A program made the position numbers and the translations under genes. A stretch of DNA of 64,000 nucleotides from an uncultured Alphaproteobacteria bacterium (GTDB lineage: Bacteria > Pseudomonadota > Alphaproteobacteria > Methylaequorales > Methylaequoraceae): contig CACIYM010000001.1 of NCBI GenBank assembly GCA_902590895.1, positions 4,477 to 68,476 on the forward strand, read 5' to 3'. Below the pieces are notes generated by a model, which was not told the DNA's origin, did no database searches, and saw nothing but the letters and a program-made list of their open reading frames with translations. Positions 596 to 16,023 of the stretch are shown here, piece by piece (the stretch's first letter is position 1; each line of letters starts with the position of its first letter).

Positions 596-792
596 GCAAG
601 CAATCCTTTTTTCTTTATGTTAACATTTTTATTCTTTTTTGAAAATAGTGCACAATTTGTGCCAGAAATTGTTCTGACCTCTAGATAAGGAATTTTTTTT
701 GATATAACGCCAAAAGCTCTGCAGCCGTATGGATAGTTTCTTTTGTGAGTTATATAAAAGTGTTGGCAGTTATTACAATAATCCCTATTCAT
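592..792 (-). CDS. small Cys-containing protein (66 aa), unknown function
   Basis: ORF track. The N-terminus has a CNNC...GC pattern (MNRDYCNNCQHFYITHKRNYPYGCRAFG) plus a later Cys. An 8-nt overlap with the upstream ORF and an ATGA overlap with the downstream gene suggest a real, co-translated gene. I recognise no family. Confidence 0.45.
   Translation of the reverse strand: MNRDYCNNCQHFYITHKRNYPYGCRAFGVISKKIPYLEVRTISGTNCALFSKKNKNVNIKKKGLLA
649..664 (-). promoter_or_regulatory. sigma54-type promoter candidate (-24/-12) in front of the coiled-coil gene
   Basis: The minus strand reads TGGCAC-AAATT-GTGCA (GG-N10-GC spacing, perfect -24 hexamer, -12 one mismatch from TTGCA). It lies 53 nt upstream of the ATG at 595, with AGGA 8 nt before the ATG. 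It sits inside the 3' part of the 66-aa ORF. Confidence 0.5.
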
Positions 793-3244: not shown

Positions 3245-3994
3245 CTAAGGTGAAAATGTTCCAACTAATGAACCAACTGTCATTGACCATCCATCAACCA
3301 ATACGAATAAAAGAAGTTTAAATGGAAGTGCAATTAACATTGGTGATAACATCATCATACCTAGTGACATTAAAATAGAAGCAATTACCATATCAATTAC
3401 TAGAAACGGTAAAAACAACAAGAACCCAATCTGAAATGCAGTTTTTAGCTCACTAGTCATGTAAGCCGGAAGAATTATGTAAAACGGTATCTCAGAAGTA
3501 TCAAGAAATTCACCTTTGTTTGCCATATCTGAAAACATCACAAGATCATTTTTTCTGGTGTTTTTAATCATAAAACCCTTTAGTTCGTTACCCCCACTTT
3601 CAATAGCCTCACTTAAATTCATCTCTCCAGCCTGATAAGGTCCTGAAACAGTTGAATATATTTTGTTAAAAGTTGGGGCCATTACAAAAAATGTTAGAAA
3701 AAGTGAAATAGCAATAATAATTTGATTAGGTGGAGTTTGTTGGGTACCTAGTGCTTGTCTAAGAATTGACATAACAATTACTATTCTCGTGAAAGCAGTC
3801 ATACCCAAAACAAGTGAGGGTAGGATTGTTAATGCTGTCATTAATGCTAAAATTTTTAAAGATAGCGAATATGTTTTATCTCCATTAGCTGATTCTGTAA
3901 TAGTAAGTGCTTCTAATCCTCCTGGAACTGCCTGTGAGAATGCTAAAACTGGGAATAAAAATGTTATTATAAGAAAAATACTAAATTTTTTCAT
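3245..3994 (-). CDS. fliP: flagellar export gate protein FliP
   Basis: 249 aa with an N-terminal signal peptide (MKKFSIFLIITFLFPVLAFS). Has a conserved FliP core (TALTILPSLVLGMTAFTRIVIVMSILRQALGTQQTPPNQ). Confidence 0.95.
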   Translation of the reverse strand: MKKFSIFLIITFLFPVLAFSQAVPGGLEALTITESANGDKTYSLSLKILALMTALTILPSLVLGMTAFTRIVIVMSILRQALGTQQTPPNQIIIAISLFLTFFVMAPTFNKIYSTVSGPYQAGEMNLSEAIESGGNELKGFMIKNTRKNDLVMFSDMANKGEFLDTSEIPFYIILPAYMTSELKTAFQIGFLLFLPFLVIDMVIASILMSLGMMMLSPMLIALPFKLLLFVLVDGWSMTVGSLVGTFSP

Positions 3995-4310
3995 TTAATA
4001 ACCTTTTTTCAAAAACCTTTTCAAGATGTGATGTTTTATTTTTTGAATTTGTTTTAATTTCAGTTAATAGAGCTCCTGAGTTTTTTCCAGAAATAAATAA
4101 ATATTCTTTGTCATCAAGATTTAATATTAAAGCCCTATCTCCTTGACCAAGAATGGTCACATCAGATATTTTCATCCTTTTTTTTGAATTTAATTTTTGT
4201 GATATTACATGCTTATTTTTTTTTAGATAATAAAAACCAATAAGCATTGATAGTAAAAAACCTAAAACTAACAAATAGTTTGATAAACTGGGTCCTGTAA
4301 ATTCTTGCAT
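3981..4310 (-). CDS. fliO: FliO-like flagellar biosynthesis protein
   Basis: Single TM (LSNYLLVLGFLLSMLIGFYYL) followed by a small soluble domain. It sits immediately upstream of fliP and overlaps it by 14 nt. I place the start at the ATG at 4310-4308 (MQEFTG...), which is preceded by GAGG. The track's TTG start at 4340 lies inside the -12 element of the promoter. Confidence 0.6.
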   Translation of the reverse strand: MQEFTGPSLSNYLLVLGFLLSMLIGFYYLKKNKHVISQKLNSKKRMKISDVTILGQGDRALILNLDDKEYLFISGKNSGALLTEIKTNSKNKTSHLEKVFEKRLLNEKI

Positions 4311-4335: not shown

Positions 4336-4351
4336 TGCAAGAACCTTGCCG
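4336..4351 (-). promoter_or_regulatory. sigma54-type promoter (-24/-12) for fliOPQR-flhB
   Basis: The minus strand reads CGGCAAG-GTTC-TTGCA (GG-N10-GC; GGCA and TTGCA match the consensus TGGCAC-N5-TTGCW). It lies 25 nt upstream of the ATG at 4310, with GAGG in the short leader. Confidence 0.6.
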
Positions 4352-4430: not shown

Positions 4431-4835
4431 CTAGAGATTTTCAATTAATTCCTCAGGATCGGCCACTTCAGTAAATCTTATTCCAAACTTCTCGCCAACC
4501 ATAACAACTTCTCCTTTAGCTATTTTTGTTCCATTTGCAAGTATATCTAACGGTTCGCCTGCTAGTCTTTCAAGTTCAACCACGGAACCTTCATTAAGCC
4601 TTAATAGGTCTTTGATTTTTATCTCCGTGTTACCAACCTCCACAGTTAATTTAACCTCTATATTCTCTAATACTCGCAGGTTATTAACGGCTGCTGTCCC
4701 TTGTTTTGCAATTTTGTCATTAGGCTCACTTTGAGCATTGACATCACCGTCAGCTTTTGTCTCTTCAGGTTTATTTTCTTTAACTTCTTCGTTCGGTGTT
4801 TCTTTTTTTTCTTCTTGAGCAGTTTCAGCGTTCAT
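4431..4835 (-). CDS. fliN: flagellar motor switch protein FliN
   Basis: Has a C-terminal SpoA/FliN domain (LLRLNEGSVVELERLAGEPLDILANGTKIAKGEVVMVGEKFGIRFTEV). Lies downstream of fliM. Confidence 0.9.
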   Translation of the reverse strand: MNAETAQEEKKETPNEEVKENKPEETKADGDVNAQSEPNDKIAKQGTAAVNNLRVLENIEVKLTVEVGNTEIKIKDLLRLNEGSVVELERLAGEPLDILANGTKIAKGEVVMVGEKFGIRFTEVADPEELIENL

Positions 4836-4846
4836 TATATATCTCC

Positions 4847-5827
4847 TTAGTTTTTTAATCTTTTAGTTAATTTTACAGAAGCATTACCTTTAACTTCTCC
4901 CATTTCAGCCTTAAAATACTTTTGATTACTAACATAAAAATCGACGGTATCATCTACATTAATATTTAAAGTATCACCTTCTTTTATTCTAAGAAGTTTT
5001 GACATTGAAACAACAGGTTCTGATAAATTACTTTGAACTTTTAAAGGCACTTCTAGTACAGCCTTTTCTAATTTATCTCTCCAAGATAGATTAGTCTCTA
5101 CAACATCGGACTGTACCCTTGATCTTAGTAACGAAGATACTGGTTTAAGAGTTTGTAATGGGTAAACTATATCAAATGACATTGAGTCAACTTTTGGGAG
5201 TTGCATTACAAAAGAACAAACAATTATAAGATCAGAAGATTCAACAAAAGCTGCAAATTGCGGATTTTGTTCTCTACTATGAAATTTGATTGTAATTGGT
5301 GTCAAGTCTTTCCAGCTTTGCTCTAAAACTTTTGCTATACCTTCATTTACTACTTCAATTATTTTTTCTTCTGTAGAAGTGAATTCTGTTCTGTTTGTCT
5401 CAGAAACTTCAAGCTTCCCTCCATATCTGCTACTCGTACAAAGGTTGACAAAATTTGGTGGTAAGACTGTAAGCATTGAACCTCTAAGCTCATCAATTCT
5501 GCTATTCGTCATACTCATGAATGCATCCAATCCAGAGCTATATTCTTCGTATGATTTTACTTCAGGAGGAAAGGAGCTAATTCTTGGTTGAACTCTGAGT
5601 AATGGTAAAAAAACACTTCTCACTGTTCGAGCGAATCTTTCATTTATCAATCTTAATGCATAATAATCTCCAAGTAATGAAAGATCATCTGAACCAAATT
5701 GGAAGGTTTTGTATTCAATTTCTTTTCCATCTTTAATAGTAGTTGAGGCACTCAAATCACCAGACTTAAGTCCTTCCATTAGAGCGTTTACTTCTTCACT
5801 AGATAACTTTCTTGATGGTTCCACCAT
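4847..5827 (-). CDS. fliM: flagellar motor switch protein FliM
   Basis: 326 aa with an N-terminal CheY-binding-like LSSEEVNALMEGL. The C-terminus has a SpoA-like domain. Lies between fliL and fliN. Confidence 0.85.
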   Translation of the reverse strand: MVEPSRKLSSEEVNALMEGLKSGDLSASTTIKDGKEIEYKTFQFGSDDLSLLGDYYALRLINERFARTVRSVFLPLLRVQPRISSFPPEVKSYEEYSSGLDAFMSMTNSRIDELRGSMLTVLPPNFVNLCTSSRYGGKLEVSETNRTEFTSTEEKIIEVVNEGIAKVLEQSWKDLTPITIKFHSREQNPQFAAFVESSDLIIVCSFVMQLPKVDSMSFDIVYPLQTLKPVSSLLRSRVQSDVVETNLSWRDKLEKAVLEVPLKVQSNLSEPVVSMSKLLRIKEGDTLNINVDDTVDFYVSNQKYFKAEMGEVKGNASVKLTKRLKN

Positions 5828-5835
5828 ATTAAACT

Positions 5836-6468
5836 CTATTGTAGTACAAAGGATGTAAAGTGAACATTTTCAACTCCACCAAATCCCTCAACCTTAACTA
5901 ATGTGTTGTTAATACCTTCTTTTAAAGAATCCGCAAGTTTTTGTTTGCCCTCTCTGCCTGCAATGTCCGCTGGGGAAAAGGTTGACATAATTGTTAGGAT
6001 CTCTGATCTAAGTGCTAATTGATGGCTATCAACATTAGCCATAACCTGCTCATCGTATTGTGTTGAAACCCCAAGTGATATTTGCAGAAATTTTTTTGAC
6101 TCTTTAAGATTGGTTGTAAAATTTCCTGGGAATTCGTAATATGTTGTTGCAAAAATTTCCTCTTCAGGTGTAATTTTTGGAATTTTTTTTGGGCCAACAG
6201 GACAATTACCTTCTTCATCTTTTTCCTCCTCAGCACACTCAGCTGCTACCTCTTCAACTTCTGCTTCAGTATCTTTTTCAGAAGCTTCTGGGTTTTCTTT
6301 TTTTTCAATAATTTGTGATATTTCGGTAGATGGATCTGATGATTCTCCACCACTCATAAGTATTCCAATTCCTAAACCTGCCCCGAGAAGTACAATACCT
6401 CCAACAATCATTAAAATTAATTTTATTGGACTTTTTTTTTCATTATCTTGGTTATTATCTTCAGCCAT
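5836..6468 (-). CDS. fliL: flagellar basal-body-associated protein FliL
   Basis: Single N-terminal TM (IKLILMIVGGIVLLGAGLGIGILM). Has a FliL-like C-terminal domain (YYEFPGNFTTNL...FLQISLGVST...LRSEILTIMS) and sits upstream of fliM. It also contains an acidic insert (see findings). Confidence 0.75.
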   Translation of the reverse strand: MAEDNNQDNEKKSPIKLILMIVGGIVLLGAGLGIGILMSGGESSDPSTEISQIIEKKENPEASEKDTEAEVEEVAAECAEEEKDEEGNCPVGPKKIPKITPEEEIFATTYYEFPGNFTTNLKESKKFLQISLGVSTQYDEQVMANVDSHQLALRSEILTIMSTFSPADIAGREGKQKLADSLKEGINNTLVKVEGFGGVENVHFTSFVLQ

Positions 6469-6496
6469 CTTTACTCCTTAATAAATAGTATTTTAT

Positions 6497-7771
6497 TTAT
6501 GCTTGCACATCAATATTATGGTTACTAATTATTGTTTTTTTATTATCAATTGATTTTCTTTTATTAACTATTTGCTGGTTATCAATAACTTTTTTTTTTT
6601 TGGGATTATTAAAATTGTTATTAGAATTACCTTCAAAAAAATTAGAAAACTTATCATTTTTACTTTCAATAAGCTCATTTAACTTTCCCAAGTTTTCATT
6701 AAGTATATTAGCTGATTCAATATTTTCGGCGTTAATTTGAATTTTTGTTGTATTATCTTTTACAGAAACATCTAAATTTATTTTACCTAGGCTTTTTGGT
6801 TTAAGTGTGATTTCAACTTTATTTAGACCGTTGGTAACAGCATTTTTAATCATTTTCGAAAACTTTTCTCCCCAACTGCTTTCCATTAAATTTAATATTT
6901 CAGGTGTTGCAAATAATTTTGTTGGTCTGGTCTTGTTTTCTAATAATTGGGTATTCTTTTCTTTTTTTAATTTTTGAATATTGTTACTGATATCAATATT
7001 TTTTTTGGAACTTGTTATTACTTGATTGAAATTTTGTTTAAGAGGATTATTGTTTTTAATGATTTGATTTTCCTCTTCATTATTTACGTTTGTAGTAAAT
7101 GATTGTTTTCTTTTTCTAATTTTTTTTTTCTCTGATACTAGTTCTGGTTGATTTGTAATTTTTTTTTTTAAATCAAACCCTTCATGATTATTTTTTTCCC
7201 CTTTTATCTCTCCTATTTTTGATTCTGTTCCTAAGTTACTAATTTTTAAATCACTGCTAGAGTTTACCTTAAAGTCTGACTTTGTATTTTTTTTTGGCGG
7301 TTTAAATGAGACAGCTACAGAAATATTTTCAGTATTAATTGTTTTCTCTGGATTATTAGATTTAATTAGATTTTGTCGATTTTCACTTGTTTTATTTGAA
7401 TCATTAGGAGTCAATATTTGATTATTTAAATTTTTAGAAAGTATATTTTTATTTTTTGAAAAATTAATGATTTCAGATTTGGGTTCATTCGTTTGAGTTA
7501 TGCCAACATCTTTATAAAAAATTTGTACTAAAGACTTTGCAAGATCTTCGGTTCTTGAATTATAATTTTGGGTGTATAAAGTGTTTTTATCACCTTCACT
7601 TTGATCAATATTGTAAATATTTGAATCATTTTCCGTATATTCTTCATTGCTTCCAGAATGCACCAAAGCGAATAGCTCAGCAAATAACAAATCTACTTCA
7701 TCAGGAGAAACATTTTGTTTGATTCCAACTAAATTTGATGCTGAATTTGTTTTATTATCTATTGAAACCAT
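6497..7771 (-). CDS. fliK: flagellar hook-length control protein FliK-like
   Basis: The C-terminal part (KVEITLKPKSLGKINLDVSVKDNTTKIQINAENIESANILNENLGKLNELI) resembles the FliK C-terminal (Flg_hook) domain. The N-terminal two thirds are N/K/S-rich low complexity. Lies between fliJ and fliL. Confidence 0.65.
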   Translation of the reverse strand: MVSIDNKTNSASNLVGIKQNVSPDEVDLLFAELFALVHSGSNEEYTENDSNIYNIDQSEGDKNTLYTQNYNSRTEDLAKSLVQIFYKDVGITQTNEPKSEIINFSKNKNILSKNLNNQILTPNDSNKTSENRQNLIKSNNPEKTINTENISVAVSFKPPKKNTKSDFKVNSSSDLKISNLGTESKIGEIKGEKNNHEGFDLKKKITNQPELVSEKKKIRKRKQSFTTNVNNEEENQIIKNNNPLKQNFNQVITSSKKNIDISNNIQKLKKEKNTQLLENKTRPTKLFATPEILNLMESSWGEKFSKMIKNAVTNGLNKVEITLKPKSLGKINLDVSVKDNTTKIQINAENIESANILNENLGKLNELIESKNDKFSNFFEGNSNNNFNNPKKKKVIDNQQIVNKRKSIDNKKTIISNHNIDVQA

Positions 7772-7796
7772 AAATTAACCTTTCACTACAACTTAG

Positions 7797-7812
7797 TGCA
7801 AATATAGTGCCA
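7797..7812 (-). promoter_or_regulatory. sigma54 promoter (-24/-12) for fliKLMN
   Basis: The minus strand reads TGGCAC-TATAT-TTGCA, a perfect match to TGGCAC-N5-TTGCA. It lies 10 nt after the fliJ stop and 25 nt upstream of the fliK ATG (7771), with AAAGG in the leader. Confidence 0.7.
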
Positions 7813-7821
7813 CGTTAATTT

Positions 7822-8229
7822 CTAAATCATTACTTTAGTTTTAAAATTTTGATCTTTTCTCAAGTCTTTTATTTTTTCGATCATTTGGGCTTCCTCTTTT
7901 ATTTTTTTATCAATTTTTTCTTTCTGTTTTTTTATTTTGTTGATTTCACCCAAATAATCGTTCATTTCCTTTTCAAGATGAATTTCTCTATTTGTTGAAA
8001 TTTCAAGTTTTTCTTGAAGATTTTCTCTAAAAGAAGAAGTTTGTCTAAGTTGAGAACTATTTAATATTTCTCCTTCATTAAATGATGATTTTTTAAGCAT
8101 TTCCTTTAAATCTTCACTAATCCTTTCTAATTTTTTTTTTTCTAAACTAAGGGTATTTAGATTTAAAGAGAGCTTATTTTTTTTGATTTTTTTTAATAAA
8201 TTAAGTAGTTGGTATTTTTTTTTTTTCAT
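7822..8229 (-). CDS. fliJ: flagellar export chaperone/stalk protein FliJ-like
   Basis: A 135-aa, entirely coiled-coil, K/E-rich protein lying directly after fliI. Size and position are typical of FliJ. Confidence 0.6.
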   Translation of the reverse strand: MKKKKYQLLNLLKKIKKNKLSLNLNTLSLEKKKLERISEDLKEMLKKSSFNEGEILNSSQLRQTSSFRENLQEKLEISTNREIHLEKEMNDYLGEINKIKKQKEKIDKKIKEEAQMIEKIKDLRKDQNFKTKVMI

Positions 8230-8233
8230 AATG

Positions 8234-9550
8234 TTAAATGTTTTTTAATAAATCCATACTTTGGTTGAAGTCTTCTTTTTTTCTGTAATCTTGCTTGATT
8301 AACTCGCAAATTTTAGGCCATAACTCAATTGCTTTGTCAATTTCTTCATTTTGACCAGTATTGTAACCACCCATTAAAACTAGATCTTTATTTTCTTGAT
8401 ATATTGAAAAATATTTTTTTATCAGCTCAGATTTTTTTCTGTGTTCGTCAGTAATTATTGAATTCATTACTCTACTTAGAGATTGATTGATATCAATTGC
8501 TGGAAAGATACCTAGCTGTGCAAAATCTCTAGACAAAACAATATGTCCGTCAAGAATTGCTCTAGCCGTATCGACCACAGGATCGTTTGTGTCATCTGAA
8601 TCAGCTAAAATTGTATAAAAGCTTGTTATTGTTCCTTCATTTTGTGAACCTGCACCCGTTCTTTCAATTAGATTCGGTATCATTGAAATTACTGATGGAG
8701 GGTATCCTTTTGATGTTGGTTGTTCCCCTAATGCGAGACCAACTTCCCTTTTGGCATGGGCAATTCTTGTTAAAGAATCCATGATTAGCAGAACATTTTT
8801 ACCTTTTGCTCTAAAATATTCGGCAATTGATGTAGCTCTTTCTGCACCTTTAATTCTAAGTAAAGGAGATTTATCTGCCGGAACTGCGATAATTGTTGTT
8901 CTTTTTTTTGTTTCGTCATTAAGTATATCTGAAACAAAATTACCAAGCTCTCTCCCTCTTTCACCTATTAATGCTACTATCACAATGTCTGCATTTGTAA
9001 ATTTTGTCATCATTCCTAAAAGCATTGATTTACCAACTCCAGAGCCAGCTATAATTCCTAATCTTTGACCTCTACCAACAGTGAACATTGTATTAATTGC
9101 CTTTATTCCTACATCCAAAGTTTCACTTATTGGTTTACGCTTCATTGGATTAATTGGTTTACCATTCAAAGGCCAATGATCATTCAAGGAAATTTTTTTA
9201 CTTTCTTCATCAATAGGGTTTCCAAATGCATCGACTACTCTTCCCAAAATTTCATCCCCAACTTCAATGTTGGTGCTGGTATCGAGTGCCTCAATTATTG
9301 AACCAGAGATGAGATTTGCATTTTGGTTGTGAACAGCAATTAAATTTTTATTCTCTCTAAAACCAATAATTTCACCAGTTACGTTATCATCATTGTTACA
9401 ATATATTTTGCAAACAGTGCCAATTGGAGAAGGAAAGGCGTCACATTCAATAATTTTTCCATCAAATTTTGTGATTCTACTTTTGTAGGAGATATTTTTG
9501 TTAATTGAAAACTTTTCTAAATTTTCATTTATTTTTTTGGCTATAATCAT
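8234..9550 (-). CDS. fliI: flagellum-specific ATPase FliI
   Basis: 438 aa. Has Walker A GSGVGKS, Walker B LLIMDSLTR, and an F1/T3SS-ATPase-like sequence throughout. Confidence 0.95.
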   Translation of the reverse strand: MIIAKKINENLEKFSINKNISYKSRITKFDGKIIECDAFPSPIGTVCKIYCNNDDNVTGEIIGFRENKNLIAVHNQNANLISGSIIEALDTSTNIEVGDEILGRVVDAFGNPIDEESKKISLNDHWPLNGKPINPMKRKPISETLDVGIKAINTMFTVGRGQRLGIIAGSGVGKSMLLGMMTKFTNADIVIVALIGERGRELGNFVSDILNDETKKRTTIIAVPADKSPLLRIKGAERATSIAEYFRAKGKNVLLIMDSLTRIAHAKREVGLALGEQPTSKGYPPSVISMIPNLIERTGAGSQNEGTITSFYTILADSDDTNDPVVDTARAILDGHIVLSRDFAQLGIFPAIDINQSLSRVMNSIITDEHRKKSELIKKYFSIYQENKDLVLMGGYNTGQNEEIDKAIELWPKICELIKQDYRKKEDFNQSMDLLKNI

Positions 9551-10470
9551 TTTTTACTAGTATCTGACACATCATTATTTTTCAAAGTTTTATTATTATT
9601 ATTATTTTCTTGATTTTGATTTGAATTACTTTCAATATTCTTCTTAAGATCTTCTAAATCTTCATTAATATTAGATGATTGAACAAATTTAGTTTTATTA
9701 GAGAGTATATTTGCTACTTCAATAGATCCCGATTTTATTTTTAAATCACCACGTTGAAGATCATTATCAATTTCAAGTTTTTGATCAATATTTATTTTGT
9801 GGTCGGTAAGATATTTTGAAACAGATTCAAAATCTTCTTTATTAAGAAAAATTTTAACTTGCTTGAGAGAATTTTCAATTAAGTTACTTAATTCAGAAAC
9901 TTTTTCAAAAAATTTTTCTGTTTTTGTATCGATTTCATACCCTAGCATTTGTCTAGAAATTTTTTTCAAATTAGTGTTGATTTGATCATTTATCTGTCTG
10001 ATAAAATCAGGGGTCACTGTAAATATATTGTCAGCAAGATTTTTAAAGTTTACAGCAAGTGCCTGTTCACCTTTTTCAAGTTCCTCTTTGACTTTTTTTA
10101 CGCCGAGGTTGTAACCTTTATTATAATATTCTTTTGCAAGTTCGTTGGCCATTTTTTTTGCTTCTGTTTCAGTAATTTTTTTTTCTTCAATAGTTTCCTC
10201 TTTTTTTTCTTCTTCAGTTTCATCTTTCTTCACTTCTTTATCAACAATCTCAGGCTGCTCAGTTTTTTTTAAATTTTGTGAGTTTGACAAAGCCATATCC
10301 TTTGGTGTTTTTTTATTAAAAAGATACGAAACGTTTTCAGTAATTTCAGATTCTTTCTTGAAGTCTTGACTTGTTTTACTTAACAAACTTAGGATTTCTT
10401 CAGTATTTAAAGCACCAGTATTTTTTTTGTCTTGATCTTTTTTTTTTTGATTTTCTTGGATCTGCATCAT
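9547..10470 (-). CDS. fliH: flagellar assembly protein FliH-like
   Basis: Lies between fliG and fliI with 4-nt overlaps on both sides. Has a central coiled-coil segment (EAKKMANELAKEYYNKGYNLGVKKVKEELEKGEQ) typical of FliH. The N- and C-termini are low complexity. Confidence 0.65.
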   Translation of the reverse strand: MMQIQENQKKKDQDKKNTGALNTEEILSLLSKTSQDFKKESEITENVSYLFNKKTPKDMALSNSQNLKKTEQPEIVDKEVKKDETEEEKKEETIEEKKITETEAKKMANELAKEYYNKGYNLGVKKVKEELEKGEQALAVNFKNLADNIFTVTPDFIRQINDQINTNLKKISRQMLGYEIDTKTEKFFEKVSELSNLIENSLKQVKIFLNKEDFESVSKYLTDHKINIDQKLEIDNDLQRGDLKIKSGSIEVANILSNKTKFVQSSNINEDLEDLKKNIESNSNQNQENNNNNKTLKNNDVSDTSKK

Positions 10471-11516
10471 ACAAAGTCATCTCCACCTCTTCCAGCTAGA
10501 ACAATAGTTCCTTCATCTGACATTGTTCTTGCAACATTTATTACAGCTTTTTGTGCTTCTTGTACTTCTGTTAATCTTACTGGTCCAAGAACTTCCATCT
10601 CATCTTTAATATTTGCTGCAGCTCTTTGTGACATACAATTAAATATTTTTTCTTTCAGTTCATCCTCTGTCCCTTTTAGAGCAATAATTAAAATCTCTTG
10701 ATCAACATTTCTTAAAAGAGTTTGCATGCTCCTGTCATCCATTAAAATTAAAGTTTCAAATGTGAACATACTTTCTTGTATTTCTTTTGCTAGGTGTCTA
10801 TCTTTTTCACCCAAGGATTTAATAACTCTTTGTTCCATATTTTGCTTAGTGAAGTTCATTATTGAAGCTGCTGCTTTTATCCCACCGACTGAAGATGCTC
10901 TAAGAGAAGTATTAGTTTTAAATTTAAGTTGCATAACTCTTTCGAGCTCAGCTAAAGCATCAGGCTGGACTGTTTCAAGTGTTGCTATTCTGTGAATTAT
11001 GTCCGACTGAATGTCTTCTGGAAGTAAAACAAGTACATCCGCAGCTACCCCTGGTTCAAGATATGAAATAATGAGAGACATAATTTGCGGATGTTCATCC
11101 GCTATTAGTTCTGCAACTGACCTAGCATCCATCCAATCAAGAATTTCAATAGGTTTATCACTTTCAGTAGGTGTAATTCTTCCAAGAACTGACTGTGCTT
11201 TATTTTCGCCTAAAGCTTTTGTCATAACATTTTTGATATAATTAGATGAGCCCATTCCAAGATCAGTTTGCGTTTTTATTATCGCAAGAAATTCATCTAA
11301 AACTTTATTTACCGTGTCTTGATCTAACCCTTGAACATTATACATCTCTTTACCAAGCTGTTGAACTTCTTTTGGCCCAAGATTTCTTAGGATTTCCGAT
11401 GCTTCATCTTCTCCCAATAACATCATTAATATTGCGCATTTTTGTGTGCTGGTCAGTTTTTCGTAAAATGAAAGTTCTTCTTCGTTTTTATTTTCTTCTG
11501 TTTGTTTTTCGGCCAT
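10467..11516 (-). CDS. fliG: flagellar motor switch protein FliG
   Basis: 349 aa with the MFTFETL motif and a typical LTSTQKCAILMMLLGEDEASEILRNL N-terminus. The charged C-terminal torque helix region is present. Confidence 0.95.
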   Translation of the reverse strand: MAEKQTEENKNEEELSFYEKLTSTQKCAILMMLLGEDEASEILRNLGPKEVQQLGKEMYNVQGLDQDTVNKVLDEFLAIIKTQTDLGMGSSNYIKNVMTKALGENKAQSVLGRITPTESDKPIEILDWMDARSVAELIADEHPQIMSLIISYLEPGVAADVLVLLPEDIQSDIIHRIATLETVQPDALAELERVMQLKFKTNTSLRASSVGGIKAAASIMNFTKQNMEQRVIKSLGEKDRHLAKEIQESMFTFETLILMDDRSMQTLLRNVDQEILIIALKGTEDELKEKIFNCMSQRAAANIKDEMEVLGPVRLTEVQEAQKAVINVARTMSDEGTIVLAGRGGDDFV

Positions 11517-11535
11517 TTAAAATTCCTTTTTATTA

Positions 11536-13254
11536 CTATGCATCTTTTTTCATTAGTTGTCTAAATACATTTGATACCTTCCCTGCTTCATCTCCCACAA
11601 TCATTCTGATTACTGCCACTTTATCGTCATATGTGTTAGCAGTATCTAGCATTTCAGCTGAAATTGCAGTTTTCTTAGGTTTTAATTTAGCTTTTATATC
11701 CTCTATTGATTCACCTTCTTGAACCTCTACCTCGGCTTCTGCTTCTTCTGGTTCAAGATCTGCTTCAGACATTCCAGCTCCAGCACCAACTCCTGCTGAT
11801 GGCACTAAAATTCTATTTAACAATGGTTTCAAAGCCCCGAATGTAACAATTGCTAAGATAAGAACGGTAGAAATTTGACCAATAAGATTTTGAAACCATG
11901 ATTCTTCATACCATTTAGTTGATATTAAATCCATCTCTTCAATGAAATCTCCACTTGTCACAACAATGCTATCGCCTCTATCACCGTTAAATCCTACTGC
12001 CTCCTTTACAAGCGAGGAGATTTTTTCTTTATCTTCTTCACTAATTGGTTCAGAAACGATACCCTCTGGTGACTCGACAGCTTTGTTTTTTACTAAAACT
12101 GCTGTTTTTACTCTTCTAATTTTACCAATTTGACCAACAGTTGTACTAAGTTTTTTACTAACTTCATAATTCTTCACATTTGATGATGATCTTTGTTTGA
12201 ATTCTGCTGGGTCACCCTCGACTGGAGTGTCAATTTGTAAATCAGCTGCAAGAGGAGCTTGATTTGCAACTGCTCCTGGAATACCTCTTGCGGGTCTATC
12301 TGTTGACTCATCCAAACTGTTTTGTTCACTTCTTGGCGCAATGGTTTCTGGGTCGAATGTCTCCTCAGTGGTTTGGGTATTTGTAAAGTCCATTTCTACA
12401 TTTACTTCAGCGGTGATGTTTCCTGCTCCAACTATTGGTGAAACCAAAGATAAAATTCTCTCTCTGTAAAGTGACTCAATCTTAATCCTGTGATTAAGCT
12501 GTTTTTCAGTTAAAGCTATATTAGGATCGTTTTCAGGCTTTGAAAGAAGTTTACCATACTGATCAACAACAGTTACATTATCAGAAGACATATTAGGAAT
12601 AGATGATGAAACAATATGGACTATGGATCTTACCTGTTCACGATTCAGAACTCTGCCGTCAGCAAGTTTCACAAAAACTGAGGCTGTTGGAGATGCAGAG
12701 TTTCTTACAAAAACAGATCTCTCTGGTATCGCCAAGTGCACTCTTGCACCTAAAATGTAAGAGATTTCATTTATTGACCTAGCTAATTCTATTTCTTGTG
12801 TTTGTTTCATCTTCATAAATTCTACTGATCGACTTGTTCCCATAGGAATTTTCTCTAAAATGTCATATCCCTGAGGTATAGAACTTGGAAGACCTTCCGC
12901 TGCAAGTTTCATTTTTGCTTCATAATATTCTGGTGATGGGACAAGTATTTCGCCGGTAGTAGAGTCAATCGAGACATCTATTCCATTAGATCTAAGTACA
13001 TCAATAACCCTTGATTTTTCATGTTCTGGTAATGATGAAAATAGTGTTGTTCTAGATGGTTCCTTGAAAGAAAGAAATAAAATCATTCCTATAAAAATTA
13101 CAAATAAAGTTATCATTACTGGAATAGATCTTTGAACAGCCGGTTCATTTGAAAGTTTTCTTAACTTTTCAAGTGAGTTCCCAATACTCGAAACAATACC
13201 TTTGTTAGCTAATTGAGCGTTTGTAATTTCAGATGTTTGTACTTGTTCAGCCAT
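11536..13254 (-). CDS. fliF: flagellar MS-ring protein FliF
   Basis: 572 aa with an N-terminal TM, a periplasmic ring-building region and a C-terminal TM. The sequence is typical of FliF (GYDILEKIPMGTSRSVEFMKMKQTQEIELARSI). Confidence 0.95.
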   Translation of the reverse strand: MAEQVQTSEITNAQLANKGIVSSIGNSLEKLRKLSNEPAVQRSIPVMITLFVIFIGMILFLSFKEPSRTTLFSSLPEHEKSRVIDVLRSNGIDVSIDSTTGEILVPSPEYYEAKMKLAAEGLPSSIPQGYDILEKIPMGTSRSVEFMKMKQTQEIELARSINEISYILGARVHLAIPERSVFVRNSASPTASVFVKLADGRVLNREQVRSIVHIVSSSIPNMSSDNVTVVDQYGKLLSKPENDPNIALTEKQLNHRIKIESLYRERILSLVSPIVGAGNITAEVNVEMDFTNTQTTEETFDPETIAPRSEQNSLDESTDRPARGIPGAVANQAPLAADLQIDTPVEGDPAEFKQRSSSNVKNYEVSKKLSTTVGQIGKIRRVKTAVLVKNKAVESPEGIVSEPISEEDKEKISSLVKEAVGFNGDRGDSIVVTSGDFIEEMDLISTKWYEESWFQNLIGQISTVLILAIVTFGALKPLLNRILVPSAGVGAGAGMSEADLEPEEAEAEVEVQEGESIEDIKAKLKPKKTAISAEMLDTANTYDDKVAVIRMIVGDEAGKVSNVFRQLMKKDA

Positions 13255-13272
13255 TTCTTACCCCTTACTGTT

Positions 13273-13617
13273 CTAAACCGGCATATTCATTATATCTTTG
13301 TATGCAGATAAAACCTTATTTCTAATATTTAACGTCATTTGAAATCCTAAACTGGCCATTTGCTGATTTATCATTACTTTGGTTAAATCATTTTCAATTC
13401 CAAGTTCATATTTTTTTGTCAGTTCAGCACTGTGAGTTTGGTTATCTGAAACTTCAGTTATTGCATTCTTTATACTTTGTAAAAAATCAAGATCCCTATT
13501 GTTTTCAATTTTTGGTGAAAGATTTGCGACACTTTCTTGAAGGTTCTTGATTTGTTCTTGGTTGTTATTAGTCTCTACTAATTGAGGTTTAAAAACAGTT
13601 GTTAAATTTGGTTTCAT
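13273..13617 (-). CDS. fliE: flagellar hook-basal body protein FliE
   Basis: 114 aa. The C-terminus NIRNKVLSAYKDIMNMPV matches the conserved FliE end (VRNK..AYQEIM.M). Confidence 0.8.
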   Translation of the reverse strand: MKPNLTTVFKPQLVETNNNQEQIKNLQESVANLSPKIENNRDLDFLQSIKNAITEVSDNQTHSAELTKKYELGIENDLTKVMINQQMASLGFQMTLNIRNKVLSAYKDIMNMPV

Positions 13618-13635
13618 TTTTATCTTTCTTAAAGT

Positions 13636-14781
13636 TTATAATGCTGCCTGCGAAATCTTTTCGTCAAAATTTTTATATAAATTGTTATTGCAACTCACAT
13701 CAACCATAATGTGACTTTCATCTATGATTTTATCATCACTTAAAACAATTGCTCTTTGCAAAACATTTTCTAGTTCTCTAACATTTCCTGGCCAACTATA
13801 ACTAGTAAGAATTTTTTTTGCTTTATCTGTTATAAAAGGAAGTTTTCCGAATTCTGTGTGTCTTTTAAGTAATGCTATACTAATAGGTATAATATCATCT
13901 GTTCTTTCAGATAAATGTAGTGTTTCAATAGGAAAAACATTTAGTCTATAGTAAAGATCCTCTCTGAATTTTTTTTCTTTGACTTCTTCAATCATGTTCC
14001 TGTTTGTTGTTGCTATCACTCTTACATCAACATCTATATCTCTTTGTCCTCCAATTGGCGTTACTTTCTTTTCTTGTAAAACCCTCAATAATTTGGCTTG
14101 AAGAGATAAAGGCATTTCTGAAATTTCGTCAAGTAATAGTGTTCCAGTATCAGCAGCTCTAAAAATACCTTTATTTGCCGACGAGGCACCTGTAAAAGCA
14201 CCTTTTTCATGTCCAAAAAGCATCGCTTCTAACATATTTTCTGGGATTGCCGCGCAATTTATTGCAACAAATGGTTTTTCAGATCTAACAGAATTTTGGT
14301 GAATATAGTTTGAAATTACCTCTTTGCCTGTCCCCGTCGGTCCATGTATAAAAACGGTAACATCTGTCTTTGCAACTTTTTCAGCCATTTTAACTAAAGA
14401 ATATGTTTTGGGATCAGAAAAACTGTATTTGTCATCAGAAAGTGACTGAAAAATGATTTCTAAAATTACGTCATTAAAATCTTTGAGTGAAATTATCACA
14501 TAAGCTCCACCTAAATCATTTTGCATTTCGTAACCTGCTTCAGATTTTTCTAAAACTAGTATATTAGTAGAACCAAAGGTTCTGGAAACTTTTAAAATCT
14601 CTGATTTTCCCCCAATTTTTTCTTGCAAATTTTTAGCGCAAATAATTGTTGATTTGTTTTTTTCAATTTTTTTAATTTCATTTAAACTTATTGTTTGTAC
14701 ATTAAGATTCTTTTTCTTTAAAAAATTTAGTACTAAATTTTTTTCTTCAAAATTTTCTTCTATAATAAATATTTCTTTCAT
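13636..14781 (-). CDS. sigma54-dependent activator with a degenerate REC-like N-domain and AAA+ core but no DNA-binding domain (FleT/FlrC-like)
   Basis: Has Walker A GPTGTGKE, the GAFTGA loop ([10 protein letters not shown]), LLLDEI and PGNVRELEN. The N-terminal ~125 aa looks REC-like but has IFIIEEN in place of the DD pocket and no acceptor Asp (STIICAKNL). The protein ends ~45 aa after the AAA+ lid with no Fis-type HTH. It is the first gene of the fliE-fliJ string (18 nt before fliE). Confidence 0.85.
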   Translation of the reverse strand: MKEIFIIEENFEEKNLVLNFLKKKNLNVQTISLNEIKKIEKNKSTIICAKNLQEKIGGKSEILKVSRTFGSTNILVLEKSEAGYEMQNDLGGAYVIISLKDFNDVILEIIFQSLSDDKYSFSDPKTYSLVKMAEKVAKTDVTVFIHGPTGTGKEVISNYIHQNSVRSEKPFVAINCAAIPENMLEAMLFGHEKGAFTGASSANKGIFRAADTGTLLLDEISEMPLSLQAKLLRVLQEKKVTPIGGQRDIDVDVRVIATTNRNMIEEVKEKKFREDLYYRLNVFPIETLHLSERTDDIIPISIALLKRHTEFGKLPFITDKAKKILTSYSWPGNVRELENVLQRAIVLSDDKIIDESHIMVDVSCNNNLYKNFDEKISQAAL

Positions 14782-14811
14782 TTGTAACCTTGATAAAGTT
14801 TCTAAGCTAAA

Positions 14812-14827
14812 AGCAAAAAACTTACCA
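14812..14827 (-). promoter_or_regulatory. sigma54-type promoter candidate for the activator-fliEFGHIJ operon
   Basis: The minus strand reads TGGTAA-GTTTT-TTGCT (GG-N10-GC; good -12, weaker -24). It lies 30 nt upstream of the ATG at 14781, with AAGG in the leader. An A19 tract starts 6 nt upstream of the -24 element. Confidence 0.4.
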
Positions 14828-14833
14828 ATTTAC

Positions 14834-14859
14834 TTTTTTTTTTTTTTTTTTTAAAAAAA
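14834..14859. repeat. T19 A7 homopolymer tract in the divergent regulator intergenic region
   Basis: Counted directly: T at 14834-14852 (19) followed by A at 14853-14859 (7). The count agrees with the FFFFFF* ending of the spurious + ORF 14654..14854. Confidence 0.9.
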
Positions 14860-14887
14860 CTGTTTAAAATCAATGACTTAAAATTTT

Positions 14888-14902
14888 TTATTATTATTAT
14901 TA
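14888..14902. repeat. (TTA)5 microsatellite
   Basis: Read directly as ttattattattatta. It lies in the same intergenic region, about 50 nt upstream of the ATG at 14953. Confidence 0.85.
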
Positions 14903-14952
14903 TTTTTTTAATATCATTATCGTCATTTTTCTGACATTATTTTAAAGTTATT

Positions 14953-16023
14953 ATGAATAACATTATTAAAGGAAACTGTGAGGCTACATCAGAGCTGAAA
15001 AAATTGGTAGAAATGGTCTCAATTTCTAATTCAACTGTATTGTTACGTGGTGAGACTGGTTGTGGAAAAGATGTTGTTGCACGAGCAATTCATCAAACTT
15101 CTAAAAGAGCAGGAGAATTGGTCAATGTAAACTGTGCAGCTATACCCTCCGAGTTATTAGAGTCAGAGCTTTTTGGTCATGAAAAAGGTGCATTTACAGG
15201 AGCAGATAACAGAAGAGAGGGAAGATTTGAGGCCTCAGACCAAGGTACACTTTTTCTTGACGAAATTGGCGATATGCCCCTTCCTCTTCAGGCAAAATTA
15301 TTAAGAGCCATTGAAACAAGAACTATACAAAGAGTAGGGGGTAAAGGTGAAATCAAACTGGATCTTAGACTTATTTGTGCAACACATCAAAATATCGAAA
15401 AGAAAATTGATGAGGGTCTCTTTAGGGCTGATTTATTTTATAGAATTAATGTGTTTCCAATTGAAATCCCCACTTTAGCTGAAAGAAAGGAAGATATTCC
15501 AATATTAGTTACGCACATTTTAAATGAAATAAGAGAAAATGGATCAAAGTCTCCTTCATTTGAGGAATCGGCTTTAACTGCCTTAAAAGAGTATGTTTGG
15601 CCTGGTAACATAAGAGAATTAAAAAATTTAATTGAAAGAGCGGCAATCATTTTTGGAGACAAAAAAATCAATGGGAAGAACATAAGAGAAAATTTACTAA
15701 AAATCAATCTTCCAGATTTCAAAGAGGAAAAGGATGTTTTATGGGATTTAACATCTGATCTTGCAGAAGTTGAAGAAAAGACAGAGCAAAATCATGACGA
15801 GAGTTCAATGCCGCATCCTAATCATTACAAAAAATGGTTTGAATATTTAGATAAAATAGATTTAAGGAGACACCTAAGCGAAATAGAGTATATTTTAATT
15901 GAAGGGGCCTTAAAAAAAAATAGTGGATCGGTAACAGCTGCTTCAAAAAGTCTTAAAATTAACAGAACCACCCTAATTGAAAAAATGAAAAAATATTCAA
16001 TTCCAAAAGCAGGAAATGATTAA
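14953..16023 (+). CDS. sigma54-dependent activator with AAA+ core plus C-terminal Fis-type HTH and no N-terminal sensor domain (FleQ/PspF-like architecture)
   Basis: Starts directly in the AAA+ module (GETGCGKD at aa 33-40). Has [25 protein letters not shown] and a C-terminal HTH ([24 protein letters not shown]). An in-frame TGA at 14932-14934 excludes an N-terminal extension. Confidence 0.9.

What the first reader, a model, noticed from the sequence alone, without database searches (positions are those of the whole stretch)
7797..7812. Perfect consensus sigma54 promoter TGGCAC-N5-TTGCA between fliJ and fliK
The minus strand reads TGGCACTATATTTGCA. Every position of the canonical -24 TGGCAC and -12 TTGCA elements is present with the correct 5-nt spacer. 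It lies 10 nt after the fliJ stop and 25 nt before the fliK ATG.

In DNA this AT-rich, a G/C-containing 11-of-11 match at exactly an operon boundary is unlikely to be chance. It splits the colinear cluster into at least two transcription units: activator-fliEFGHIJ and fliKLMN. Any enhancer site must lie inside the fliJ coding sequence.
Basis: partly seen in the sequence, partly recalled or inferred. Interest (0 to 1): 0.6.

Follow-up and report, generated by a model that had tools for sequence, protein, structure and literature searches.

The report
Sigma-54 promoter in front of fliK
The motif is a real, strongly conserved sigma-54 (RpoN) promoter that starts the fliK hook-length and switch-protein part of a flagellar gene cluster in an uncultured marine alphaproteobacterium. 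This arrangement is already known from Vibrio, Pseudomonas and Cereibacter, so the finding is sound but ordinary.

Summary
The sequence is as described. The minus strand at 7812..7797 reads TGGCACTATATTTGCA. It lies 9 nt after the fliJ-like stop codon and 25 nt before the fliK ATG.

- **Uniqueness:** it is the only perfect TGGCAC-N5-TTGCA in the 1.07 Mb assembly.
- **Conservation:** the same spacer holds TGGCA[C/T]-N5-TTGCA in every relative whose spacer was readable, more than 25 genomes from at least 12 genera, while the flanking bases drift freely. It is also present in 3 of 3 more distant alphaproteobacterial families with the same cluster type.
- **Regulon:** weaker sites of the same kind sit before flgB, flhA, a flgP-like gene, a flgF-like gene, motA, glnB/K, fleT and fliO.
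- **rpoN:** it is absent from this 71%-complete assembly. In a same-genus genome it lies about 1.4 kb beyond the point where this contig ends. This genome also keeps three intact sigma-54 activators.
- **Most likely mechanism (inferred):** RpoN holoenzyme binds here and is opened by the neighbouring FleQ/FleT-type activator pair. Transcription would start near 7786 and run through fliKLMN.
- **Caveats:** no terminator separates fliJ from fliK, so this is probably an internal promoter. No enhancer site was found, and nothing requires one inside fliJ.

Verdict: a new member of a known kind, of low interest.

The parts
7797..7812 (-). Sigma-54 promoter core TGGCACTATATTTGCA. The -24 element TGGCAC is at 7812-7807 and the -12 element TTGCA is at 7801-7797.
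   Evidence: Searches show the sequence. It is unique in the genome. It is conserved in all relatives examined.
7784..7788 (-). Predicted transcription start, with +1 near G7786. This counts the C of the -12 GC as -12 and gives a leader of about 15 nt.
   Evidence: Inferred from standard sigma-54 promoter geometry applied. It has not been mapped.
7779..7783 (-). Shine-Dalgarno sequence AAAGG of fliK, 7 nt before the ATG.
6497..7771 (-). fliK (hook-length control protein, 424 aa), the first gene downstream of the promoter.
   Evidence: Pfam Flg_hook, E = 1.9e-11. The N-terminus MV(S/A)I is conserved in relatives.
7822..8229 (-). fliJ-like gene (135 aa, coiled-coil), the last gene of the upstream unit.
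   Evidence: It lies between fliI and fliK. It has no Pfam hit of its own. Five of 13 orthologues weakly match PF02050 FliJ, best E = 0.0033.
4431..6468 (-). fliL (5836-6468), fliM (4847-5827) and fliN (4431-4835), the genes that follow fliK.
4336..4351 (-). Candidate sigma-54 promoter of fliO, CGGCAAGGTTCTTGCA, 25 nt before the ATG at 4310. fliO is then 3981-4310, 109 aa.
   Evidence: The site is identical in G003 and G002, and G012 has CGGCAAGGTTTTTGCA.
14812..14827 (-). Weak sigma-54-like site TGGTAAGTTTTTTGCT, 30 nt before the ATG of the fleT-like gene. It is the candidate promoter of the upstream fleT-fliEFGHIJ unit.
   Evidence: It has three mismatches, but GG-N10-GC is kept.
13636..14781 (-). 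FleT-like sigma-54 activator (381 aa). It has an AAA+ domain, a GAFTGA loop and a Walker A motif, but no HTH_8 DNA-binding domain.
14953..16023 (+). FleQ-like sigma-54 activator (356 aa). It has an AAA+ domain, a GAFTGA loop and a C-terminal HTH_8, but no N-terminal regulatory domain.
649..664 (-). Sigma-54-like site TGGCACAAATTGTGCA, 53 nt before the 241-aa coiled-coil membrane protein gene that follows flhB.
   Evidence: It is conserved in G003, G002 and G012.

Best explanation
The motif is a functional RpoN (sigma-54) promoter, the fliK promoter of a gammaproteobacterial-style ('Fla1-type') flagellar cluster carried by a streamlined marine alphaproteobacterium.

**Shown**
- The -24/-12 element is perfect and unique in the genome.
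- It sits in the right orientation 25 nt before fliK.
- It is the only conserved block of the fliJ-fliK spacer in every relative examined.

**Inferred**
- RpoN holoenzyme forms a closed complex here.
- The complex is opened by the two kinase-less activators encoded at the head of the cluster. One is a FleQ-like protein with a DNA-binding domain. The other is a FleT-like protein without one, whose gene is the first of the upstream fleT-fliEFGHIJ unit.
- As in Cereibacter sphaeroides, FleT must be made first. fliK and the genes after it would then fire one tier later, as class III genes.
- Transcription would start near G7786, give a leader of about 15 nt that carries the AAAGG ribosome-binding site, and run through fliKLMN and probably on into fliOPQR-flhB, which has a similar promoter of its own.
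- No terminator precedes the site, so it acts as an internal promoter added on top of read-through from upstream.
For: - **Sequence and geometry:**
- **Uniqueness:** it is the only perfect match in 1.07 Mb. Sites of the same type are enriched in intergenic DNA, 18 of 62 against about 6% non-ORF sequence. They lie 11-86 nt before flgB, flhA, a flgP-like gene, a flgF-like gene, motA and glnB/K.
- **Phylogenetic footprint:** TGGCA[C/T]-N5-TTGCA occurs in 21 of 21 family genomes. The core columns carry 1.4-2.7 bits of relative entropy; the flanks are mostly 0-0.5 bits. All 25 named loci that reach the spacer have it. So do 3 of 3 other alphaproteobacterial families, with GC of 34-56%.
- **Sigma-54 machinery:** this genome has three true activators with GAFTGA loops. 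A three-domain RpoN is present in 23 of 31 genomes searched. In same-genus G003 it lies about 1.4 kb past the point where contig C1 ends.
- **Activator pair:** the domain make-up matches FleQ/FleT.
- **Literature:** PMC11999139, PMC7277832 and PMC10084136 describe the FleQ/FleT/RpoN2 hierarchy. PMC12607845 places fliKLMNOPQR-flhB in the Vibrio cholerae FlrBC class III regulon. bioRxiv 10.1101/2021.08.29.457346 describes PfliK as an internal sigma-54- and FleQ-dependent promoter in Pseudomonas putida.
Against: - rpoN is not in this assembly. Its presence is inferred from relatives and from the activators.
- No enhancer or FleQ site was found.
- The assignment to class III and to FleQ plus FleT rests only on analogy with C. 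sphaeroides.
- The FleT-like protein here has an extra N-terminal region of about 120 aa with no Pfam match, so it is not a simple copy of the studied FleT.
Confidence: 0.85

Rival explanations
1. It is a real sigma-54 promoter, but it is not FleQ/FleT class III. It could be activated by the FleQ-like protein alone, at the same tier as the fleT promoter. It could also be activated from solution without any nearby enhancer, as described for activators that lack a DNA-binding domain such as Helicobacter FlgR.
For: - No conserved candidate enhancer was found in fliJ, in the start of fliK, or shared among promoters.
- The FleT-like protein lacks an HTH domain.
- PMC3162934 lists FlgR, CtcC and FleT as activators without DNA-binding domains.
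Against: - The FleQ-like partner keeps an HTH_8 domain.
- In C. sphaeroides all flagellar sigma-54 promoters except PfleT need both proteins.
- The motif searches used here were crude and would miss a short degenerate site.
Confidence: 0.25
2. The conserved block serves another purpose. It could be an RNA hairpin in read-through transcripts that masks the fliK ribosome-binding site, or a protein roadblock between the two units. Its resemblance to a sigma-54 promoter would then be secondary.
For: In this genome the spacer RNA folds into a hairpin that pairs the promoter region with the bases just before the ATG. The free energy is -17.6 kcal/mol and the z-score is -2.8.
Against: - The hairpin is not conserved. 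Most relatives give z-scores near 0.
- What is conserved is exactly the TGGCA...TTGCA bases with fixed spacing.
- No Rfam family matches the region.
Confidence: 0.04
3. The site is a chance match to the consensus and has no function.
For: Markov-simulated genomes of this size and composition give 0.3 perfect matches on average.
Against: - The site is intergenic and correctly oriented.
- It is present at the orthologous position in every relative examined across several families, while the neighbouring bases are not conserved.
Confidence: 0.01

Closest known systems
fliK and fliO sigma-54 promoters of the Cereibacter (Rhodobacter) sphaeroides Fla1 cluster, transcribed by RpoN2 with FleQ and FleQ/FleT
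   Same: - The gene order is colinear: fleT-fliEFGHIJ, then fliK and the following genes, then fliOPQR-flhB.
- fleQ is divergent from fleT.
- FleT lacks a DNA-binding domain and FleQ lacks an N-terminal domain.
- rpoN lies inside the flagellar locus, as seen here in same-genus and same-family genomes.
- Sigma-54 promoters stand before fliK and fliO. For C. sphaeroides this comes from my own recollection of Poggio et al. 2000, J Bacteriol 182:5787. Its title is cited in PMC7277832, but the paper itself is not held.
   Different: - The relatives here have a single rpoN match per genome, not four. The same sigma factor must also serve the glnB/K-type promoter.
- The FleT-like protein has an extra N-terminal region of about 120 aa.
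- The host is a streamlined, roughly 30% GC, uncultured marine lineage.
- Nothing has been tested experimentally.
Vibrio cholerae class III (FlrBC- and sigma-54-dependent) fliKLMNOPQR-flhB unit downstream of class II fliEFGHIJ
   Same: - The gene order is the same.
- A sigma-54-dependent start at fliK separates an earlier fliE-J tier from a later fliK tier (PMC12607845).
   Different: - Vibrio uses a two-component pair, the FlrB kinase and the FlrC response regulator.
- No kinase is encoded beside the two activators in this window. The activators are of FleQ/FleT type.
Pseudomonas putida PfliK, an internal sigma-54- and FleQ-dependent promoter of the hsbAR-hptB-fliKLMNOPQR-flhB operon
   Same: - It is an internal promoter directly before fliK, inside a longer read-through unit.
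- It depends on sigma-54 and FleQ.
- Putative FleQ sites lie upstream or downstream of the promoters (bioRxiv 10.1101/2021.08.29.457346).
   Different: - In Pseudomonas fliK is preceded by hsbAR-hptB rather than fliJ.
- FleQ there has an N-terminal domain and is controlled by FleN and c-di-GMP.

Membership tests
Sigma-54 (RpoN)-dependent -24/-12 promoter | Conserved GG and GC doublets exactly 10 nt apart, within TGGCAC-N5-TTGCA | tested here: met
   All 11 consensus positions match.
Sigma-54 (RpoN)-dependent -24/-12 promoter | Located upstream of a gene, on the coding strand, at a workable distance | tested here: met
   The site is intergenic and 25 nt before the fliK ATG, with the Shine-Dalgarno sequence in the predicted leader.
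Sigma-54 (RpoN)-dependent -24/-12 promoter | rpoN present in the genome | tested here: inconclusive
   - rpoN is not in this 71%-complete assembly.
- It is present in 23 of 31 genomes searched (the window's own plus 30 relatives).
- In same-genus G003 a three-domain RpoN lies about 1.4 kb beyond the position where contig C1 ends.
Sigma-54 (RpoN)-dependent -24/-12 promoter | Cognate AAA+ activator with a GAFTGA loop present | tested here: met
   Two such activators lie 6-8 kb away in the same cluster, and a third lies on contig C17. The two cluster activators have intact GAFTGA and Walker A motifs.
Sigma-54 (RpoN)-dependent -24/-12 promoter | Conservation at the orthologous position while the flanks diverge | tested here: met
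   - 21 of 21 family genomes have it.
- All 25 named loci that reach the spacer have it.
- 3 of 3 other families have it.
Sigma-54 (RpoN)-dependent -24/-12 promoter | [quoted passage not shown] | not testable with these tools
Fla1-type FleQ/FleT-dependent class III flagellar promoter (C. sphaeroides model) | A FleQ (AAA+ plus HTH, no N-terminal domain) and FleT (no HTH) pair, with fleT heading the fliE operon | tested here: met
   The domain make-up and gene order match. The FleT-like protein carries an extra N-terminal region of about 120 aa with no Pfam hit.
Fla1-type FleQ/FleT-dependent class III flagellar promoter (C. sphaeroides model) | A FleQ/FleT binding site associated with the promoter | tested here: inconclusive
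   No conserved third-codon-position block was found in fliJ. No 12-mer was shared by the flagellar promoters. The published C. sphaeroides site could not be consulted.
Fla1-type FleQ/FleT-dependent class III flagellar promoter (C. sphaeroides model) | Activity requires both FleQ and FleT | not testable with these tools
   This needs a genetic or in vitro assay.

The most novel reading that the evidence does not exclude
In this lineage the fliK promoter may do more than start transcription.

- It sits only 9 nt after the fliJ stop with no terminator. Its 5' half is complementary to the bases just before the fliK start codon.
- Read-through transcripts from the earlier fleT-fliEFGHIJ unit could therefore fold so that the fliK ribosome-binding site is masked. 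Transcripts started at the sigma-54 promoter lack the masking arm and would be translated.
- FliK synthesis would then depend on the later activator tier despite co-transcription.
- A related possibility is activation without any nearby enhancer.
Probability: 0.08. Interest if true: 0.5.

Novelty: new member of a known kind. Interest (0 to 1): 0.2.

Why it matters
- It confirms that an abundant, uncultured, genome-streamlined marine alphaproteobacterial lineage runs its flagellar genes with the RpoN cascade known from Vibrio, Pseudomonas and Cereibacter Fla1. The conservation extends down to the position of the fliK promoter.
- It gives a reliable anchor for annotating transcription units in these genomes: fleT-fliEFGHIJ, fliKLMN, fliOPQR-flhB, and the genes after flhB.
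- It shows that the missing rpoN is an assembly gap rather than a biological absence.
- It does not open a new question.

Tried and rejected
- **Chance match:** rejected by conservation.
- **rpoN truly absent:** searches with PF04552, PF04963 and tblastn using the same-genus RpoN found nothing. Synteny with G003 shows that the gene falls just beyond the end of contig C1. The near-identical G002 contig ends even earlier.
- **FleR/FlgR-type response regulator as activator (my first idea):** dropped in favour of the FleQ/FleT model after the domain checks and the literature.
- **Enhancer inside fliJ:** a codon alignment of 19 fliJ orthologues shows no block of conserved third positions in the 3' half. 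A search for 12-mers (two or fewer mismatches, at least 4 G/C) shared by 8 promoter regions gave nothing convincing.
- **Terminator between fliJ and fliK:** none was found on the minus strand.
- **Known RNA family in the spacer:** none.
- **Conserved RNA hairpin:** it is present in this species, but z-scores are near 0 in most relatives.
- **Poggio et al. 2000 (PMC94701):** the paper is not held.
- **Confirming fliJ by sequence:** support is weak. The window's own protein has no hit, the PDB profile search gave nothing, and 5 of 13 orthologues match PF02050 weakly.

Full report
**1. Observation**

The minus strand of the window reads TGGCACTATATTTGCA at 7812..7797.

- The upstream ORF (7822-8229, minus, 135 aa) ends with TAG at 7824-7822. 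Nine bases separate that stop from the motif.
- The downstream ORF (6497-7771, minus, 424 aa) starts with ATG 25 nt after the motif. It is preceded by AAAGG at 7783-7779.
- Pfam identifies the surrounding minus-strand genes as a sigma-54 activator, then fliE, F, G, H and I, then the 135-aa ORF, then fliK, L, M, N, a weak FliO, P, Q, R and flhB.
- The 135-aa ORF has no family hit of its own. Five of 13 orthologues match PF02050 FliJ weakly, and it sits exactly where fliJ belongs. The name fliJ is therefore reasonable but rests mostly on position.

**2. Is it more than chance?**

- The site is the only perfect TGGCAC-N5-TTGCA in the window, where 0.02 are expected. It is also the only one in the whole 1,072,689-base assembly at 29.8% GC.
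- First-order Markov genomes of the same size give 0.3 perfect sites on average. Uniqueness alone is therefore not decisive.
- Of 62 sites with two or fewer mismatches that keep GG and GC, 18 fall in the roughly 6% of the genome outside long ORFs.
- The intergenic sites lie 11-86 nt before recognisable sigma-54 targets: flgB, flhA, a FlgP-like (LPP20-type) lipoprotein gene, a flgF-like rod gene, motA and a glnB/K PII gene.
- The genome therefore has a coherent sigma-54 regulon, and the fliK site is its best-scoring member.

**3. Conservation**

I located fliI in 31 of 41 genomes of the same family and pulled 1.5 kb downstream from 20 of them.

- Every one of these, together with this genome, has TGGCA[C/T]-N5-TTGCA in the fliJ-fliK spacer.
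- When the sequences are anchored on the motif, the T, GGC, A, TT, GC and A columns are invariant, with 1.5-2.7 bits of relative entropy. Most flanking columns carry 0-0.5 bits.
- A separate scan of named public genomes returned 26 alphaproteobacterial loci. All 25 that reach the spacer have one site with one or no mismatches at the same place.
- These relatives are uncultured marine Alphaproteobacteria. They are single-cell genomes named AG-... and metagenome bins labelled Pelagibacteraceae or Rickettsiales bacterium.
- In a sample of 200 further genomes of the class (plus the window's own), three other families have the same type of FliI at 48-58% identity. All three carry a sigma-54 site in the same spacer despite GC contents of 34-56%. 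The sites are TGGCATTGTTTTTGCA, TGGCACTTTATTTGCA and TGGCATGAAAAGTGCA.
- This is a clean phylogenetic footprint of an old promoter.

**4. The rpoN problem**

- No Sigma54_DBD or Sigma54_CBD match exists in this assembly, which is 71% complete and in 43 contigs. No tblastn hit to the same-genus RpoN exists either.
- However, 23 of the 31 genomes searched (the window's own plus 30 relatives) have rpoN, and where both genes were located it lies about 16 kb downstream of fliI on the same contig.
- Gene-by-gene comparison with same-genus G003 shows collinearity from fliH to motA. Contig C1 of this genome stops about 120 nt upstream of motA.
- In G003 the next genes are a 156-aa Lcl_C-domain protein, one minus-strand ORF, and a 494-aa RpoN with all three Pfam domains. 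rpoN therefore lies about 1.4 kb past the contig end.
- The contig of the near-identical G002 ends even earlier.
- This genome also keeps three strong sigma-54 activators. The two in the flagellar cluster have intact GAFTGA loops and Walker A motifs. These would be useless without RpoN.
- I conclude that rpoN is missing from the assembly, not from the organism. This is inferred.

**5. Transcription units**

- On the coding strand of the cluster there are four intergenic sigma-54-type sites. All but fleTp were also found in G003, G002 and G012, which belongs to another genus; the relatives' loci used did not reach fleT:
  - fleTp, TGGTAAGTTTTTTGCT, at 14827..14812 (weak);
  - fliKp at 7812..7797;
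  - fliOp, CGGCAAGGTTCTTGCA, at 4351..4336;
  - a site at 664..649 before the 241-aa gene after flhB.
- fliOp has the same geometry as fliKp: 25 nt to an ATG at 4310, with GAGG as the ribosome-binding site. This shows that the ORF caller's TTG start of fliO at 4340 is really the -12 element.
- No terminator-like site lies on the minus strand anywhere in 6000-15200, and the promoter begins 9 nt after the fliJ stop. Read-through from upstream is likely.
- The site is best described as an internal promoter. PfliK is described in the same way in Pseudomonas putida.

**6. Mechanism**

- *Shown:* promoter sequence, position, conservation, and the presence of activators.
- *Inferred from standard sigma-54 geometry:* taking the C of the -12 GC as -12, +1 falls at G7786. 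The leader is 15 nt and contains the Shine-Dalgarno sequence.
- *Inferred from the C. sphaeroides Fla1 model:*
  - The divergent 356-aa protein has AAA+ and HTH_8 domains and no N-terminal domain. It corresponds to FleQ.
  - The 381-aa protein heading the fliE operon has an AAA+ domain and no HTH. It corresponds to FleT.
  - In C. sphaeroides, FleQ with RpoN2 activates the fleT-fliEFGHIJ operon. The FleQ/FleT hetero-oligomer then activates the remaining promoters (PMC11999139, PMC7277832, PMC10084136).
  - On that model, fliK and the genes after it are class III genes that fire only after FleT has been made from the upstream unit.
I checked the domain make-up and the literature, but not the homology to the C. 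sphaeroides proteins themselves.

**7. Enhancer**

- A codon alignment of 19 fliJ orthologues shows no run of conserved third positions in the 3' half.
- No G/C-containing 12-mer is shared by the eight flagellar promoter regions.
- In P. putida, putative FleQ sites lie upstream or downstream of sigma-54 promoters.
- A site inside fliK, a poorly conserved site, or activation without a nearby site all remain open.

**8. Comparison with known systems**

- The arrangement matches V. cholerae. There fliKLMNOPQR-flhB belongs to the FlrBC-dependent class III regulon, while fliEFGHIJ is expressed earlier (PMC12607845).
- It matches P. putida PfliK.
- It matches the C. sphaeroides Fla1 cluster, in which rpoN2 lies within the flagellar locus. 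From my own memory of Poggio et al. 2000, the fliO, flgB and fliK transcripts there start at sigma-54 promoters. That paper is not held in the library.
- The differences are minor: one rpoN rather than four, an N-terminal extension on the FleT-like protein, and an uncultured streamlined host.

**9. Side observations**

- In this genome the spacer RNA can form a hairpin of -17.6 kcal/mol with a z-score of -2.8. It pairs the promoter region with the bases before the ATG. Only read-through transcripts would contain both arms. The fold is not conserved in most relatives, so I give it little weight.
- In several genera the fliK ATG lies only 12-15 nt after the motif. That would give leaders of about 2-5 nt.

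**10. Limits and verdict**

- The promoter call rests on sequence, regulon logic and conservation. The activator assignment rests on analogy.
The feature is a new member of a well-known kind and is of low interest.

Noticed in passing
window 4336-4351 (minus strand): A conserved sigma-54-like site, CGGCAAGGTTCTTGCA, lies in the 90-nt gap between fliN and fliO. It sits 25 nt before an ATG at 4310. The TTG 'start' of the fliO ORF at 4340 is really the -12 element, so fliO is 109 aa rather than 119.
   Followed up: partly
window 14812-14827 (minus strand): A weak sigma-54-like site, TGGTAAGTTTTTTGCT, lies 30 nt before the fleT-like gene. It is preceded by a long run of A (about 14835-14853).
   Followed up: partly
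window 8240-8255 (minus strand, 3' end of fliI); position 15-33 of loci L007-L026: TGGCCTAAAATTTGCG keeps the GG-N10-GC spacing and is conserved in almost all relatives. It lies inside the conserved FliI C-terminus (W-P-K-I-C-E). Protein coding probably explains the conservation, rather than a promoter for fliJ.
   Followed up: no
L022 (G013), L016 (G034), L017 (G037), L026 (G040): fliJ-fliK spacers: In these genera the fliK ATG lies only 12-15 nt after the -12 element. Transcripts from the sigma-54 promoter would have leaders of about 2-5 nt and no Shine-Dalgarno sequence, making them nearly leaderless.
   Followed up: partly
window 7772-7820 (minus strand): The spacer RNA folds into a hairpin of -17.6 kcal/mol with a z-score of -2.8. 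It pairs the promoter region with the bases just before the fliK ATG. Only read-through transcripts would carry both arms. The fold is not conserved in most relatives.
   Followed up: yes
genome contig C5:22808-22823 (minus strand), outside the window: TGGCATAGTTCTTGCT lies 35 nt before a glnB/K (PII) gene. An NtrC-like activator of about 478 aa and an NtrX-like protein are encoded on contig C17. The single RpoN would therefore serve both nitrogen and flagellar promoters.
   Followed up: no
genome contig C27:7196-7211 (minus strand), outside the window: TGGAACAGAAATTGCT lies 11 nt before a 284-aa ORF. I judged the ORF to look like a methyltransferase from its sequence alone and ran no family search. 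It might belong to the flagellar regulon, for example in flagellin modification.
   Followed up: no
start of genome contig C1, and end of G002 contig C2 (L028): Two near-identical assemblies both break within a few kb of the flhB-motA-rpoN stretch. This suggests a region that is hard to assemble, which hides rpoN in both.
   Followed up: partly
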